Assembly: GCA_964631415.1 (NCBI GenBank)
Contig: CAZVZC010000012.1
Span: 14,317 to 45,513, forward strand
DNA length: 31,197 nt
Direction: 5' to 3'
Origin: an uncultured archaeon
GTDB taxonomy: Archaea > Asgardarchaeota > Thorarchaeia > Thorarchaeales > Thorarchaeaceae
A program made the translations under genes and the position numbers. The notes beneath the pieces were generated by a model. It saw only the letters and a list, made by a program, of their open reading frames with translations. It had not been told where the DNA came from and made no database searches. How positions within the stretch are numbered: position 1 is the stretch's first letter; every line of letters starts with the position of its first letter. This document shows, piece after piece, positions 7,247 through 9,211 of this stretch.

Positions 7247-9211
7247 ATGTTCTTTCAGGTGCCTCAGCTACTTGCTTTCAACTGGGGCCTGTTGCTGGCT
7301 CTGGTTCTGTCACTGGGGACCGCGAGCTTCATCATTGCATGGAACAACCGGACTAGGAGCCGTATGGTCCTTGCTCTTGACAACCTGCTGCAGGCAAGGA
7401 TGACTGTTCAACTGTCCGAGTTGGCGCAGGAACTTGGCAGGAAACCCATGGACAAGTCAACGACTCTCAAAATCGTGAAGAGGACAAAGAACGCCATCAT
7501 GAGTTATCTAGGTACGACGGTGGTTTCATCCCCACTTCTCTCCAAGCGCCTCCGTACTTCACTCTCAGAGAGCGGCGTTGTACATGTGGTGGACGAGTGT
7601 AATAGGTGGGGACTCATAGAGGGGGACATCTCCCGACTCATGGAAGAGATTAGCAAGGCTGAGGGTATGGACGTAGTGCTGACTCGCGATGGTGACTATA
7701 TCCTTGTGCCTGGACTGAAAGAACGCCTGAGGGACACTCTGGGTTTGAACGGGCGCATTGATGTTGCTGCCGAGGCGCAGTCGATGAAAGTAGACCCTGA
7801 GGAGCTGAGGCGCCTGATACAGAGTTGGGGCTGGGGACTCATTGAGAGTCAGGATGGCTCCCTGTTCTCGTCTCGATGGTTGAGGTCAGTACTTGAGAGG
7901 ACCGTTGAGAAGGCAGGCTACCTGGAAGTGAAGGCTGAGGCTGCCAGACTGCTCCTATCAGCGGAGGACATCATGGACACGGTGAAGGCACTGGGATGGA
8001 CCATGCTAGAAACACTCGATGGACGACTTGTGCCATATCATCAGGTGGAGCAGGAACTCTCGGATAGAATCGACTCGCAGGGTTTCATTGATTTGGACGC
8101 AGAAGCGACCCGTTTGAAGATCAACACATCCAAGCTGTTGACCGTTCTCCGAAGCCGAGGATACCGGCTCGCGGCCTCAAAGGACCGCCCAGAGGTTGTG
8201 ATGACTCTCGATCACATTCGGGAGCGGCTAGCCGATGACATTGAGCTGACGGGCTGGGTGTCACCGGAGCAAGAGGCCAACTTGGTTGGAGTAGATAGCA
8301 GAATAGTGGAAGCGGTGTTGAAAGACAGACCCGGACTGAGAAAGGGGCGGGACGGCCGCTACGTTTCGATTGACTCTCTCAAACGATGGCTGGTCCAAGA
8401 GGCTCAGGACAAGGGCATTGTTCGTCTGGACGCCGCAGAGCGTCTGTGGGGTCTCTCATCGCTTGAACTCAGGATGTTGATGAAAGAGTCGGGACTGAGG
8501 ACAGTCGTCACTCAATCGGGTGATCATCTGTCTGTTGCTCATGCCCGAAGGAGGATACTCTCAGAGATAAAGAAAGGGAACCGGGTGGATGCAGCTGCGC
8601 TGGCCAAAGACCTCGGTGTTGACACCGGGACTGCAGAGGCGCTGATGTCACATATTGAGGGCGATGCACTCACAAGCAAGGATGGCTCTCTTGTGTCAAT
8701 GGCCTTTCTGCGAGACGAGTTCCAGCGGGCGTTTGCCTCCGCGGGCGTGCTTGAGCCATCTCGGGAGGCTTCCACACGCGGGCTCGACGTTTCGGAGGTA
8801 AGGCAGCTCATTGCATCGATGGGGCTTCAGACTCTGGAAACGCCATCGGGCAAGATTGTTGACATGGCTTGGGTGGTCGGCCGCATGAGGCAGGCGCTCA
8901 CGCTGAAAGGCGTGTTCGACCTGCAGGCTCTCGCTGAACAGCTGGAGCTCGAGTATGCGAAGCTCGCTGATGTCGTAGAGAAGCAACTTGGAGCCAGTGA
9001 GATAGTCGTAGATCCGGCTGGTGTGATAGTGAACTCAAAATGGATTGATGTTCTCAGAGAATATGCTTCGGAGATGGAGTCCATCCAAGTAGCGTCATTC
9101 GCCAAGGAGCGAGGCCTCAGGCAGTCGGCTGCTCTTCATCTGTTGAGAAGATATGTGGGAGGGGTATACAAGTCCCGGCAAGACGTGTTTGTACCCCACC
9201 TGCGTCCTTGA
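7247..9211 (+). CDS. Single-pass membrane protein with about 11 tandem ~55-aa winged-helix-like repeats (UFL1/DDRGK1-like)
   Basis: N-terminal TM segment (WGLLLALVLSLGTASFIIAW), then repeats of pattern L..l...l...G.i.l...a...gl....l..ll...g...l.t.dG.l. GGAGG RBS at 7235-7239. 24 bp downstream of the ATPase stop. Confidence 0.7.
   Translation: MFFQVPQLLAFNWGLLLALVLSLGTASFIIAWNNRTRSRMVLALDNLLQARMTVQLSELAQELGRKPMDKSTTLKIVKRTKNAIMSYLGTTVVSSPLLSKRLRTSLSESGVVHVVDECNRWGLIEGDISRLMEEISKAEGMDVVLTRDGDYILVPGLKERLRDTLGLNGRIDVAAEAQSMKVDPEELRRLIQSWGWGLIESQDGSLFSSRWLRSVLERTVEKAGYLEVKAEAARLLLSAEDIMDTVKALGWTMLETLDGRLVPYHQVEQELSDRIDSQGFIDLDAEATRLKINTSKLLTVLRSRGYRLAASKDRPEVVMTLDHIRERLADDIELTGWVSPEQEANLVGVDSRIVEAVLKDRPGLRKGRDGRYVSIDSLKRWLVQEAQDKGIVRLDAAERLWGLSSLELRMLMKESGLRTVVTQSGDHLSVAHARRRILSEIKKGNRVDAAALAKDLGVDTGTAEALMSHIEGDALTSKDGSLVSMAFLRDEFQRAFASAGVLEPSREASTRGLDVSEVRQLIASMGLQTLETPSGKIVDMAWVVGRMRQALTLKGVFDLQALAEQLELEYAKLADVVEKQLGASEIVVDPAGVIVNSKWIDVLREYASEMESIQVASFAKERGLRQSAALHLLRRYVGGVYKSRQDVFVPHLRP

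What the first reader, a model, noticed from the sequence alone, without database searches (positions are those of the whole stretch)
7247..9211. Membrane-tethered 11x winged-helix protein resembling the UFL1-DDRGK1 (UFM1 E3 ligase) scaffold
Seen: one N-terminal TM helix, then about 11 back-to-back ~55-aa units, e.g. LKERLRDTLGLNGRIDVAAEAQSMKVDPEELRRLIQSWGWGLIESQDGSLFSSRW and VEQELSDRIDSQGFIDLDAEATRLKINTSKLLTVLRSRGYRL. Each has a helix-Gx(I/V)-helix-helix-beta-hairpin (xDG) pattern. Known: eukaryotic UFL1 is a chain of tandem winged helices, held at the ER by the single-TM winged-helix protein DDRGK1/UFBP1, and the complex clamps 60S ribosomes at the translocon. Motifs I recall from UFL1 (HTLDGKEYI, GRVNI, NGYLEF, RQDKAVFVP) resemble LTRDGDYI, GRIDV, AGYLEV and RQDVFVP here. 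Inference: a one-polypeptide, membrane-anchored UFL1-like scaffold. UFL1-like domains may already be listed among Asgard eukaryotic-signature proteins, so the novelty would lie in the architecture and context.
Basis: partly seen in the sequence, partly recalled or inferred. Interest (0 to 1): 0.8.

Follow-up and report, generated by a model that had tools for sequence, protein, structure and literature searches.

The report
Membrane-anchored 11-winged-helix UFL1-like scaffold
A Thorarchaeota (Asgard archaeon) gene encodes a membrane-anchored rod of 11 winged-helix domains that is truly related to the UFL1/DDRGK1 spine of the eukaryotic UFM1 ligase, yet its lineage has no detectable UFM1 machinery, so it probably shows what this scaffold does without UFM1 tagging.

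Summary
ORF 7247-9211(+) encodes 654 aa: one N-terminal TM helix, then 11 back-to-back winged helices (AF2 pLDDT 85; profile comparison links units 1-8 in register).

The UFL1 reading also holds. Pfam E3_UFM1_ligase scores above its cut-off in 20 of 21 orthologues. UFL1 chains take the top five Foldseek places (E 1e-12 to 5e-9), against SelB at 3e-4 and ESCRT-II at 2e-2. TM, helix and units 0-3 superpose on the engineered DDRGK1-UFL1 chimera 8b9x over its whole length, in the register the sequence alignment gives. So one chain does what eukaryotes split between DDRGK1 and UFL1.

It is very unlikely to be a UFM1 ligase:
- It lacks UFL1's UFC1-binding helix and its C-terminal domain.
- Ufm1 and UFC1 profiles find nothing in 86 genomes of its family, while UFC1 matches 22 other Asgard genomes.

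The family is rare and confined to one Thorarchaeial family. It always sits 10-35 nt behind a P2-type Ca2+-ATPase and has been cleanly lost in some relatives. What it binds is unknown.

UFL1/DDRGK1-like domains in Asgard archaea are already published, and this scan has noted similar single-chain scaffolds on other DNA. I class it as a new variant of a known kind, of moderate interest.

The parts
4295..7222 (+). Upstream co-directional P2-type Ca2+-ATPase (975 aa), probably the first gene of the same transcript
   Evidence: Pfam E1-E2_ATPase, Cation_ATPase_N and Cation_ATPase_C. Best PDB relatives are Listeria LMCA1 (5.8e-112), SPCA1 and SERCA. It is adjacent to the WH gene in all 11 orthologous loci.
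7235..7239 (+). Shine-Dalgarno GGAGG, 7 nt before the ATG, inside the 24-nt spacer after the ATPase stop codon
   Evidence: Read directly from the sequence. The spacer leaves no room for a promoter, so co-transcription is inferred.
7247..9211 (+). Whole gene: 654-aa TM + 11 x winged-helix protein (stop codon included)
   Evidence: Orthologues of 643-665 aa, plus one of 610 aa that lacks the N-terminal TM segment, all colinear.
7247..7282 (+). Short extracellular N-terminus (aa 1-12) with a conserved M-x-L-Q-x-P motif (Q4 invariant)
   Evidence: Alignment A5. Orientation is inferred from the positive-inside rule.
7283..7342 (+). Single TM helix (aa 13-32)
   Evidence: Hydropathy peak of 2.1. 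Part of AF2 helix 7-50. A hydrophobic segment is present in all orthologues, but this is the least conserved part of the sequence.
7343..7396 (+). Juxtamembrane continuation of the helix (aa 33-50), with an Arg-rich stretch (RTRSR). It also serves as helix 1 of unit 0.
   Evidence: single WH domains align to aa 32-96.
7397..7528 (+). WH unit 0 (aa 51-94), basic (pI 10.3); structural counterpart of DDRGK1 WH1'
   Evidence: DSSP pattern. VIA aligns model 31-265 to 8b9x residues 0-254. Linked only weakly to the other units by sequence.
7529..7708 (+). WH unit 1 (aa 95-154): a complete WH. Its third helix and wing align to UFL1's partial WH, so it is the counterpart of the composite pWH'/pWH domain.
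   Evidence: HMMER aligns query 118-189 to 8b9x chain 96-169, including W121 across the chimera junction. Pfam profile positions 29-151 align to aa 131-246.
7709..7870 (+). WH unit 2 (aa 155-208): counterpart of UFL1 WH1 and the most conserved unit (G169, R170, E176, W194 and W196 invariant)
7871..8035 (+). WH unit 3 (aa 209-263): counterpart of UFL1 WH2
8036..8533 (+). WH units 4-6 (aa 264-320, 321-374, 375-429)
   Evidence: hhalign in-register links, DSSP pattern. VIA's best rigid-body fit of the four-WH chimera is at aa 207-429, Z 12.3.
8534..8863 (+). WH units 7-8 (aa 430-484, 485-539)
8864..9208 (+). WH units 9-10 (aa 540-596, 597-654). They are divergent in sequence. Unit 10 is basic (pI 10.0) and ends in a conserved G-x-Y-x-S-x-x-D-x-F motif. 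No helical CTD follows.
   Evidence: DSSP pattern, weak profile links, conservation. UFL1 aligns only up to residue ~515.

Best explanation
This is a real, conserved Thorarchaeial gene. It encodes a single-pass membrane protein with a short tail outside the cell and about 620 residues in the cytoplasm. The cytoplasmic part is a fixed-length rod of 11 winged helices.

The rod is homologous to the winged-helix spine of the eukaryotic UFM1 ligase. The TM helix, juxtamembrane helix and unit 0 sit where DDRGK1/UFBP1 sits. Unit 1 is an unsplit version of the composite DDRGK1/UFL1 winged helix. Units 2-3 correspond to UFL1 WH1-2. The remaining units extend the array.

It most likely does not conjugate anything. 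It probably works as a UFM1-independent docking scaffold that holds a cytoplasmic partner at the membrane. Its best-conserved surfaces are on units 2 and 6. It is probably made from the same transcript as a P2-type Ca2+-ATPase.

What is shown: gene, topology signals, repeats, fold, homology to UFL1, absence of detectable Ufm1/UFC1, and synteny. What is inferred: cytoplasmic orientation, co-transcription and the scaffold role. What is speculative: the cargo. By analogy with UFL1/UFBP1, whose WH domains contact the 60S subunit, the leading candidate is the large ribosomal subunit.
For: Homology to UFL1:
- PF09743 scores 37.8 bits against a cut-off of 23.2 and matches 20 of 21 orthologues, best 5.6e-12.
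- The PDB profile search finds 8b9x at 5e-8 and UFL1 chain 8c0d_A at 4.6e-5, with no other significant hit.
- Foldseek's top five are all UFL1, at 9.9e-13 to 5.4e-9. The next are RPC82 at 1.7e-5, SelB at 3.3e-4 and ESCRT-II at 1.8e-2.

Single-chain DDRGK1+UFL1 layout:
- For the fragment 1-265, the best hit is the chimera 8b9x (3.5e-10, 253 of 255 columns).
- VIA gives Z 11.1 with 230 residues aligned, model 31-265 to chain 0-254. This is the register HMMER gives independently.
- Distant relatives P0044 and P0046 carry DDRGK and E3_UFM1_ligase Pfam matches in one chain.

Not a ligase:
- There is no free N-terminal helix and no helical CTD. PMC9627666 and PMC10937380 define these parts.
- Ufm1 is over the cut-off in 0 of 86 genomes of the family, and UFC1 matches 0 of 86.
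- The same UFC1 profile matches 22 of 315 other Asgard genomes, which serves as a positive control.
- The window's genome has no UQ_con E2.

Scaffold character:
- All orthologues keep 11 units at about 650 aa.
- The protein evolves fast, at 36-52% identity against 62-83% for its neighbours.
- The chain is mildly acidic.
- The same WH module forms the cytoplasmic tail of receptor-like proteins built as signal peptide, ectodomain, TM, WH chain.

Operon: the ATPase-WH spacer is 10-35 nt in 11 loci, and the window has an SD motif in a 24-nt spacer.
Against: - No partner has been identified and nothing here tests binding.
- The structural register is not unique in a repeat protein. The whole-model fit of 8b9x is slightly better at units 3-6 (Z 12.3). 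UFL1 alone fits one unit out of register.
- No DDRGK Pfam signal appears in any orthologue. The helix beyond the membrane is only about 18 residues, far shorter than DDRGK1's N-terminal helical region.
- Units 2, 3, 4 and 8 resemble one another strongly (95-97% probability). Part of the array may therefore be a lineage-specific amplification rather than inherited unit for unit.
- The family occurs in only one taxonomic family (24 of 85 genomes, 0 of 315 elsewhere) and is cleanly absent from close relatives. It is dispensable and need not be ancestral.
- Ufm1 homologues in Asgard archaea were found by structure (PMC12962969), so a divergent Ufm1 could escape the Pfam profile.
- The genome is only 85% complete.
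Confidence: 0.65

Rival explanations
1. It is an accessory or regulatory subunit of the co-transcribed Ca2+-ATPase. Its TM helix would dock on the pump as phospholamban or sarcolipin dock on SERCA, and the WH rod would link the pump to cytoplasmic partners.
For: The gene lies 10-35 nt downstream of the P2-type Ca2+-ATPase, on the same strand, in all 11 orthologous loci from several genera. The window has an SD motif and no room for a promoter. The pump is SERCA/SPCA/LMCA1-like. From established knowledge, SERCA-type pumps are regulated by single-pass TM proteins.
Against: The TM helix is the least conserved part of the protein (mean pair score 0.61 against 1.2-2.6 for the WH units). The same ATPase, 62-66% identical, persists directly next to PanB in four genomes that lack the WH gene. 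Synteny within a single taxonomic family can simply reflect shared descent. The relatives' WH tails sit on unrelated ectodomain proteins.
Confidence: 0.12
2. It is a membrane tether for nucleic acid (chromosome, plasmid or mRNA). Its winged helices would bind DNA or RNA as in ScpB, Z-alpha or SelB.
For: Single units superpose well on DNA- and RNA-binding WH domains: Z-alpha at Z 8.6, ScpB at 8.0, and SelB WH2-4 at 7.6. The first and last units are basic, with pI 10.3 and 10.0.
Against: The chain overall is acidic to neutral (pI 6.35; units 1-9 have net charge -4 to 0). Multi-unit fits favour UFL1 (Z 11-12, E 1e-10 to 1e-13) over SelB (Z 7.2, E 1e-4). PMC9627666 classes the WH domains of UFL1/UFBP1 as PCI-like, a protein-scaffold type.
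Confidence: 0.1
3. The UFL1 likeness is only the generic winged-helix fold. The array would have arisen independently by amplification of an ordinary archaeal WH domain and would not be specifically related to UFL1/DDRGK1.
For: Identity to UFL1 is only 12-18%. The significant sequence alignment covers about 70 residues. Strong similarity among units 2, 3, 4 and 8 points to local amplification. Weak matches to many HTH families also appear.
Against: The curated Pfam threshold is passed in 20 of 21 orthologues, and no other WH/HTH family comes close in number of members matched (next best 6 of 21). The PDB profile search returns only UFL1-containing chains among 177,635 sequences. UFL1 leads Foldseek by 4-7 orders of magnitude, and the inter-domain packing of four consecutive units fits at Z 11-12.
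Confidence: 0.07
4. It is an active scaffold-type E3 ligase for a UFM1-like or other ubiquitin-like modifier.
For: The minimal human ligase is just three tandem WH domains, WH1', the composite WH and WH1 (PMC9627666). These correspond to units 0-2, and unit 2 is the most conserved. Ufm1 homologues exist in nine Asgard clades (PMC12962969). The genome has one ThiF-type E1-like gene.
Against: There is no UFC1 in 86 genomes of the family, although the same profile detects it in 22 other Asgard genomes. No Ufm1 scores over the cut-off. The window's genome has no UQ_con E2, Peptidase_C78 or DDRGK. The protein has no counterpart of UFL1's N-terminal helix (aa 1-25).
Confidence: 0.04

Closest known systems
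Human UFL1 (E3 UFM1-protein ligase 1; PDB 8qfc_B, 8ohd_A, 9gy4_E; Pfam PF09743)
   Same: Both have a chain of tandem PCI-like winged helices whose first helices form a backbone. There is significant sequence similarity over UFL1's partial WH and WH1, including the T-x-DG wing and the G-R-(I/V) strand motifs. UFL1 is the best structural match.
   Different: UFL1 is soluble. It starts with a UFC1-binding helix and a partial WH that needs DDRGK1. It has five full WH domains and ends in a helical CTD (residues 515-786) that enters the tRNA sites (PMC9627666, PMC10937380). The archaeal protein has its own TM anchor, a complete WH in place of the partial one, 11 WH units, no N-terminal helix and no CTD. 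It occurs in genomes without detectable Ufm1 or UFC1.
DDRGK1/UFBP1, and the engineered DDRGK1-UFL1 chimera (PDB 8b9x)
   Same: The order of parts is the same: N-terminal TM, helix, WH, then the WH that joins onto UFL1. The chimera superposes over its full length on aa 31-265 (Z 11.1, 230 residues), in the register the sequence alignment gives. That alignment crosses the chimera junction at W121. Natural one-chain DDRGK + E3_UFM1_ligase proteins exist among its distant relatives.
   Different: No DDRGK Pfam signal appears in any of the 21 orthologues. The helix after the membrane is about 18 residues long, not a long charged region. In eukaryotes the two halves are separate genes joined only by the composite WH.
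Asgard multidomain ESPs with an E3_UFM1_ligase domain (asCOG cog.003822: Zn-binding domains + E3 UFM1 ligase domain + adaptin-C + Vps28 C-terminal region; Liu et al. 10.1101/2020.10.19.343400; Makarova et al. PMC10936438)
   Same: Both are Asgard-specific proteins built around a UFL1-like WH array with no attached ligase machinery.
   Different: Those proteins are soluble fusions with zinc fingers, an adaptin ear and a Vps28 tail, and have about five WH units. This family has a TM anchor, 11 units and no other domain. It is restricted to one Thorarchaeial family and is tied to a Ca2+-ATPase gene.
Receptor-like Asgard proteins with a UFL1-like cytoplasmic tail (P0025, P0026, P0033, P0043, P0044 here)
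   Same: Both have one TM helix followed directly by a cytoplasmic WH chain that matches this family's profile (E 3e-35 to 4e-4) and in part PF09743.
   Different: They carry large ectodomains (PKD/Ig, NosD beta-helix, NHL propeller) and fewer WH units. The window's protein has only about 12 residues outside the cell.
SelB C-terminal WH1-4, Pol III RPC82/RPC62, ESCRT-II Vps22/25/36
   Same: These are tandem winged-helix arrays too. Single units superpose on them well.
   Different: The multi-unit matches are clearly weaker. SelB gives E 1.6e-4 to 3.3e-4 and Z 7.2, RPC82 gives 1.7e-5 with TM-score 0.08, and ESCRT-II gives 6.6e-4 to 1.8e-2. UFL1 gives 1e-10 to 1e-13 and Z 11-12. None of them shows a sequence-level match.

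Membership tests
Pfam E3_UFM1_ligase (PF09743) homology family | Whole-protein score above the curated gathering cut-off (23.2 bits) | tested here: met
   The protein scores 37.8 bits, E 2.3e-9. 20 of 21 orthologues match, best 5.6e-12.
Pfam E3_UFM1_ligase (PF09743) homology family | Fold and inter-domain packing of the UFL1 winged-helix array | tested here: met
   UFL1 chains take the top five Foldseek places at 9.9e-13 to 5.4e-9. VIA gives 8b9x Z 12.3 (221 residues aligned, rmsd 6.2) and Z 11.1 (230 residues aligned, rmsd 8.9).
UFL1 orthologue (functional UFM1 E3 ligase subunit) | N-terminal helix (aa 1-25) that binds UFC1 | tested here: not met
   The residues before the segment aligned to UFL1's partial WH are helices 1-2 of a complete WH (unit 1), preceded by unit 0 and the TM helix. 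There is no extra helix. The feature is defined in PMC9627666.
UFL1 orthologue (functional UFM1 E3 ligase subunit) | Partial WH that must be completed by DDRGK1's partial WH' | tested here: not met
   Unit 1 (aa 95-154) is a complete three-helix plus hairpin WH in one chain.
UFL1 orthologue (functional UFM1 E3 ligase subunit) | Helical C-terminal domain (residues 515-786) with the PTC loop | tested here: not met
   The protein ends at aa 654 with WH units 9-10. UFL1 aligns only up to residue ~515. The feature is defined in PMC10937380.
UFL1 orthologue (functional UFM1 E3 ligase subunit) | Cognate pathway genes (Ufm1, UFC1, UFSP) in the genome | tested here: not met
   The window's genome (85% complete) has no match to Ufm1, UFC1 or Peptidase_C78. 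In the family, Ufm1 is over the cut-off in 0 of 86 genomes and UFC1 matches 0 of 86. The UFC1 profile detects 22 other Asgard genomes. Caveat: a divergent Ufm1 could escape a sequence profile.
DDRGK1/UFBP1 | N-terminal transmembrane anchor with the bulk of the protein in the cytoplasm | tested here: met
   A single hydrophobic segment at aa 13-32 is followed by an Arg/Lys cluster in all orthologues. The orientation is inferred from the positive-inside rule.
DDRGK1/UFBP1 | DDRGK sequence signature (Pfam PF09756) | tested here: not met
   0 of 21 orthologues match at E <= 0.1. The only weak genome hit is an eS25 protein.
DDRGK1/UFBP1 | WH1' followed by a partial WH' that joins UFL1 | tested here: inconclusive
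   Units 0-1 superpose on the DDRGK1 part of 8b9x in the register of the sequence alignment. But the register slides in a repeat protein, and DDRGK1's WH1' shows no significant sequence match (2.2 bits).
DDRGK1/UFBP1 | Long helical N-terminal region between the TM helix and WH1' | tested here: not met
   The helix runs only to aa 50, about 18 residues past the membrane, and doubles as helix 1 of unit 0.
SelB-type RNA-binding WH array | Better structural or sequence match to SelB WH1-4 than to other arrays | tested here: inconclusive
   SelB is listed, but at E 1.6e-4 to 3.3e-4 and Z 7.2-7.6, below UFL1. RNA binding was not tested.
Single-pass regulators of P2-type Ca2+-ATPases (phospholamban/sarcolipin-like) | Direct binding of the TM helix to the pump | not testable with these tools
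   Only gene adjacency is available. The question needs co-purification or a functional assay.

The most novel reading that the evidence does not exclude
The protein could be a surviving unsplit form of the membrane scaffold from which eukaryotic DDRGK1 and UFL1 arose by gene fission, with their composite winged helix as the scar. Its original, UFM1-independent job would be to hold large ribosomal subunits at the membrane next to the translocon. UFM1 conjugation would have been bolted on later in the eukaryotic line.
Probability: 0.12. Interest if true: 0.85.

Novelty: new variant of a known kind. Interest (0 to 1): 0.5.

Why it matters
The UFM1 ligase is an oddity among E3s. It has no catalytic domain, only a membrane-tethered chain of winged helices that clamps the 60S subunit. 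How such a machine arose is an open question.

Picchianti et al. (PMC10183829) proposed that UFL1 and DDRGK1 predate UFM1 and had another function in Asgard archaea. This family fits that question well. It has anchor and spine in one chain, nothing else attached, a fixed length, and a lineage with no detectable UFC1 or Ufm1.

The soluble domain could be expressed and tested directly for binding to archaeal ribosomes, to the neighbouring Ca2+ pump, or to nucleic acid.

The family is narrow and dispensable, and the domain's presence in Asgard archaea is already published. So this adds an architecture and a test system, not a new principle.

Tried and rejected
- **Self-BLAST** of the protein gave no off-diagonal hit. 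The repeats are visible only at profile and structure level.
- **Whole-genome scan with PF09743** did not report even the window's own gene at the per-genome E-value and rang in no control genome. It is uninformative.
- **Rfam:** nothing in the window.
- **The one weak DDRGK hit** in the genome (13.5 bits) is an eS25 ribosomal protein with a long charged tail, not a DDRGK1 homologue.
- **Complex prediction** of the Ca2+-ATPase (aa 25-975) with the TM/juxtamembrane segment (aa 1-44) returned no verdict: score 0.00 against a mark of 0.32, and the controls were not run.
- **Genomic context of the distant relative P0046** is unrelated metabolism.
- **The sigma-70 promoter and terminator scan** does not apply to archaea and showed nothing useful.
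- **Literature searches** for a published DDRGK1/UFL1 fission or single-chain-ancestor idea found nothing beyond PMC10183829. Subscription journals are not covered.
- **UFL1 full-length chains** did not appear in the sequence-only PDB searches, only the shorter constructs. I did not resolve why. A filter acting on its low-complexity region is my guess.
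Full report
**1. What is there**

It starts 24 nt after the stop codon of a 975-aa gene on the same strand. A canonical GGAGG lies 7 nt before its ATG.

The only strong hydropathy peak is at aa 13-32. Every orthologue has such a segment, followed by an Arg/Lys cluster and preceded by a short uncharged tail with a conserved M-x-L-Q-x-P motif. 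By the positive-inside rule the roughly 620 residues after the helix should be cytoplasmic. This is an inference, not a measurement.

**2. The repeats are real**

Plain self-BLAST sees nothing. I cut the family alignment into the 11 proposed units and compared them by hhalign. Units 1-8 match one another in register, with ten pairs at 89-97% probability and E 1e-10 to 2e-6. Units 0, 9 and 10 link only weakly.

AlphaFold2 on the family alignment gives mean pLDDT 85.3. It shows a helix at aa 7-50 followed by eleven consecutive helix-(short strand)-helix-helix-beta-hairpin modules. A second model of aa 1-265, built on 17 orthologues, agrees (pLDDT 85.2, pTM 0.67).

**3. It is related to UFL1, not just to winged helices in general**

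- Pfam E3_UFM1_ligase (PF09743) scores 37.8 bits against a curated cut-off of 23.2. Profile positions 29-151 align to aa 131-246.
- 20 of 21 orthologues match this family. No other family matches more than 6 of them.
- A profile of the 21 orthologues, searched against all PDB sequences, returns only the DDRGK1-UFL1 chimera 8b9x (E 5e-8) and the UFL1 chain 8c0d_A (4.6e-5).
- Foldseek with the whole model puts five UFL1 chains on top, at 9.9e-13 to 5.4e-9. RPC82 follows at 1.7e-5, SelB at 3.3e-4 and ESCRT-II at 1.8e-2.

That test is not met.

**4. One chain covers both DDRGK1 and UFL1**

In eukaryotes, UFBP1/DDRGK1 supplies the TM anchor, a long helix, WH1' and a partial WH'. UFL1 supplies an N-terminal UFC1-binding helix, a partial WH, WH1-5 and a helical C-terminal domain. 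The two partial WHs form a composite domain (PMC9627666, PMC10937380).

Here the segment that aligns to UFL1's partial WH is the third helix and wing of unit 1. Unit 1 is a complete WH, and before it come unit 0, a helix and the TM segment.

For the N-terminal fragment model, the best Foldseek hit is the chimera, over 253 of its 255 columns (3.5e-10). VIA aligns model 31-265 to chain 0-254 (Z 11.1, 230 residues). By interpolation this is the register HMMER found independently: query 118-189 to chain 96-169. The family's near-invariant W121 aligns to the Trp just before the chimera junction.

Two distant relatives carry both DDRGK and E3_UFM1_ligase Pfam matches in one polypeptide.

Caveats:
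- The structural register slides in a repeat protein. The whole model fits the chimera slightly better at units 3-6 (Z 12.3), and UFL1 alone fits one unit out of register.
- No orthologue has a DDRGK Pfam match.
- The post-membrane helix is short.

**5. It is very unlikely to be a UFM1 ligase**

The protein has no counterpart of UFL1's N-terminal helix and no C-terminal helical domain.

The window's genome (2.16 Mb, 85% complete) has no match to Ufm1, UFC1 or the UFSP protease family. It also has no UQ_con E2, and only one ordinary ThiF-type gene.

Across 86 genomes of the same taxonomic family, Ufm1 never reaches its cut-off and UFC1 never matches. As a positive control I ran the same UFC1 profile across the phylum. 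It matches 22 genomes in five other Asgard families, 18 of them above cut-off, and none of the 85 other genomes of this family.

The WH-chain family shows the opposite pattern: 24 of 85 genomes in this family and 0 of 315 elsewhere. The two distributions do not overlap. One caveat remains. Asgard Ufm1 homologues were reported through structure-based searches (PMC12962969), so a very divergent Ufm1 could be missed.

**6. Distribution and context**

An exhaustive profile search of 1.84 billion representative proteins finds only 40 hits. About 17 are full-length orthologues (610-665 aa). One orthologue from the earlier homologue search is named as Candidatus Thorarchaeota. All of them keep 11 units.

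In 11 orthologous loci from several genera the order is always the same: P2-type Ca2+-ATPase, then the WH gene 10-35 nt downstream, then PanB, then DUF1858.

In four genomes of the family that lack the gene, the same block is intact and the ATPase lies 91-174 nt from PanB. One of the four belongs to a genus whose other members have the gene. So the gene is a clean presence/absence difference and is dispensable.

It evolves faster than its neighbours: 36-52% identity against 62-83%. Conservation peaks in unit 2, the UFL1 WH1 counterpart, then in unit 6. It is lowest in the TM helix.

**7. Relatives with other architectures**

Many distant hits have a signal peptide, a large ectodomain (PKD/Ig, NosD beta-helix or NHL propeller), one TM helix and then the WH chain. 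The WH array therefore looks like a reusable cytoplasmic module placed just inside the membrane. The window's protein is its minimal form, with no ectodomain.

Earlier notes of this scan describe similar single-chain UFL1/DDRGK1-like scaffolds on other Asgard DNA. I used them as leads only. I verified the catalogue entry cog.003822, which is a different, soluble fusion.

**8. How it most likely works**

Shown: a membrane-anchor signal, a fixed-length 11-WH rod homologous to the UFL1 spine, and no detectable UFM1 machinery.

Inferred: cytoplasmic orientation, co-transcription with the Ca2+ pump, and a non-catalytic docking role.

Speculative: the cargo. In the eukaryotic complex, all WH domains except UFBP1 WH1' touch the 60S subunit (PMC10937380). 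The large ribosomal subunit is therefore the leading candidate, but nothing here tests it.

The chain is mildly acidic (pI 6.35), which argues against general nucleic-acid binding. A role as a pump accessory is possible given the operon. The variable TM helix and the pump's independence in relatives weigh against it. The single complex prediction I could run on that idea gave no verdict and is not counted either way.

**9. Novelty and verdict**

UFL1- and DDRGK1-like proteins in Asgard archaea, and the idea that they predate UFM1, are already published (PMC10183829; 10.1101/2020.10.19.343400).

New here, as far as the searchable literature shows:
- a specific family with a TM anchor, 11 WH units and nothing else;
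- its colinearity with the DDRGK1-UFL1 pair;
- its non-overlap with UFC1 across Asgard genomes;
- its fixed position behind a Ca2+-ATPase.

I class it as a new variant of a known kind and put interest at 0.5.

Noticed in passing
window 4295-7222 (+): A 975-aa P2-type Ca2+-ATPase, closest to Listeria LMCA1, SPCA1 and SERCA. It is conserved at 62-72% identity across the Thorarchaeial family. It is the first gene of the probable operon that contains the WH-chain gene.
   Followed up: partly
L001:850-1782 (-) = G000 contig C2, about 51.3-52.3 kb: A ribosomal protein eS25 homologue (Pfam Ribosomal_S25, 30.9 bits, above cut-off). It carries a C-terminal extension of about 220 aa that is low-complexity and rich in Lys, Glu, Pro and Ala. 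That is unusually long for an archaeal eS25.
   Followed up: partly
window 7247-7264 (aa 1-6 of the WH protein): The short extracellular N-terminus keeps an M-x-L-Q-x-P motif (Q4 invariant in 12 aligned orthologues), although the TM helix after it is poorly conserved. It may be a processing or recognition signal.
   Followed up: no
window 11644-12777 (+): A 377-aa ORF with no Pfam match at E <= 0.001. It lies between a metallo-beta-lactamase-fold gene and a peptide ABC transporter operon.
   Followed up: no
P0025 (2867 aa, metagenomic relative; WH chain at aa 2209-2583): A giant surface protein with a signal peptide, many PKD/Ig/DUF2341 domains, one TM helix (aa 2074-2092) and a cytoplasmic tail that passes the E3_UFM1_ligase Pfam cut-off. 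It is an extreme example of the ectodomain-TM-WH-chain architecture.
   Followed up: partly
L035 (G109:C84:9354-9827) and 21 other Asgard genomes: Matches to the UFC1 (UFM1-specific E2) Pfam profile, 18 of them above cut-off, occur in five Asgard families outside the window's family. This is useful for mapping where a UFM1-type cascade really exists in Asgard archaea.
   Followed up: no
L015 (G321:C71:46965-47810): The PanB match in this genome contains one in-frame TAG. This could be a sequencing error, a pseudogene or recoding.
   Followed up: no
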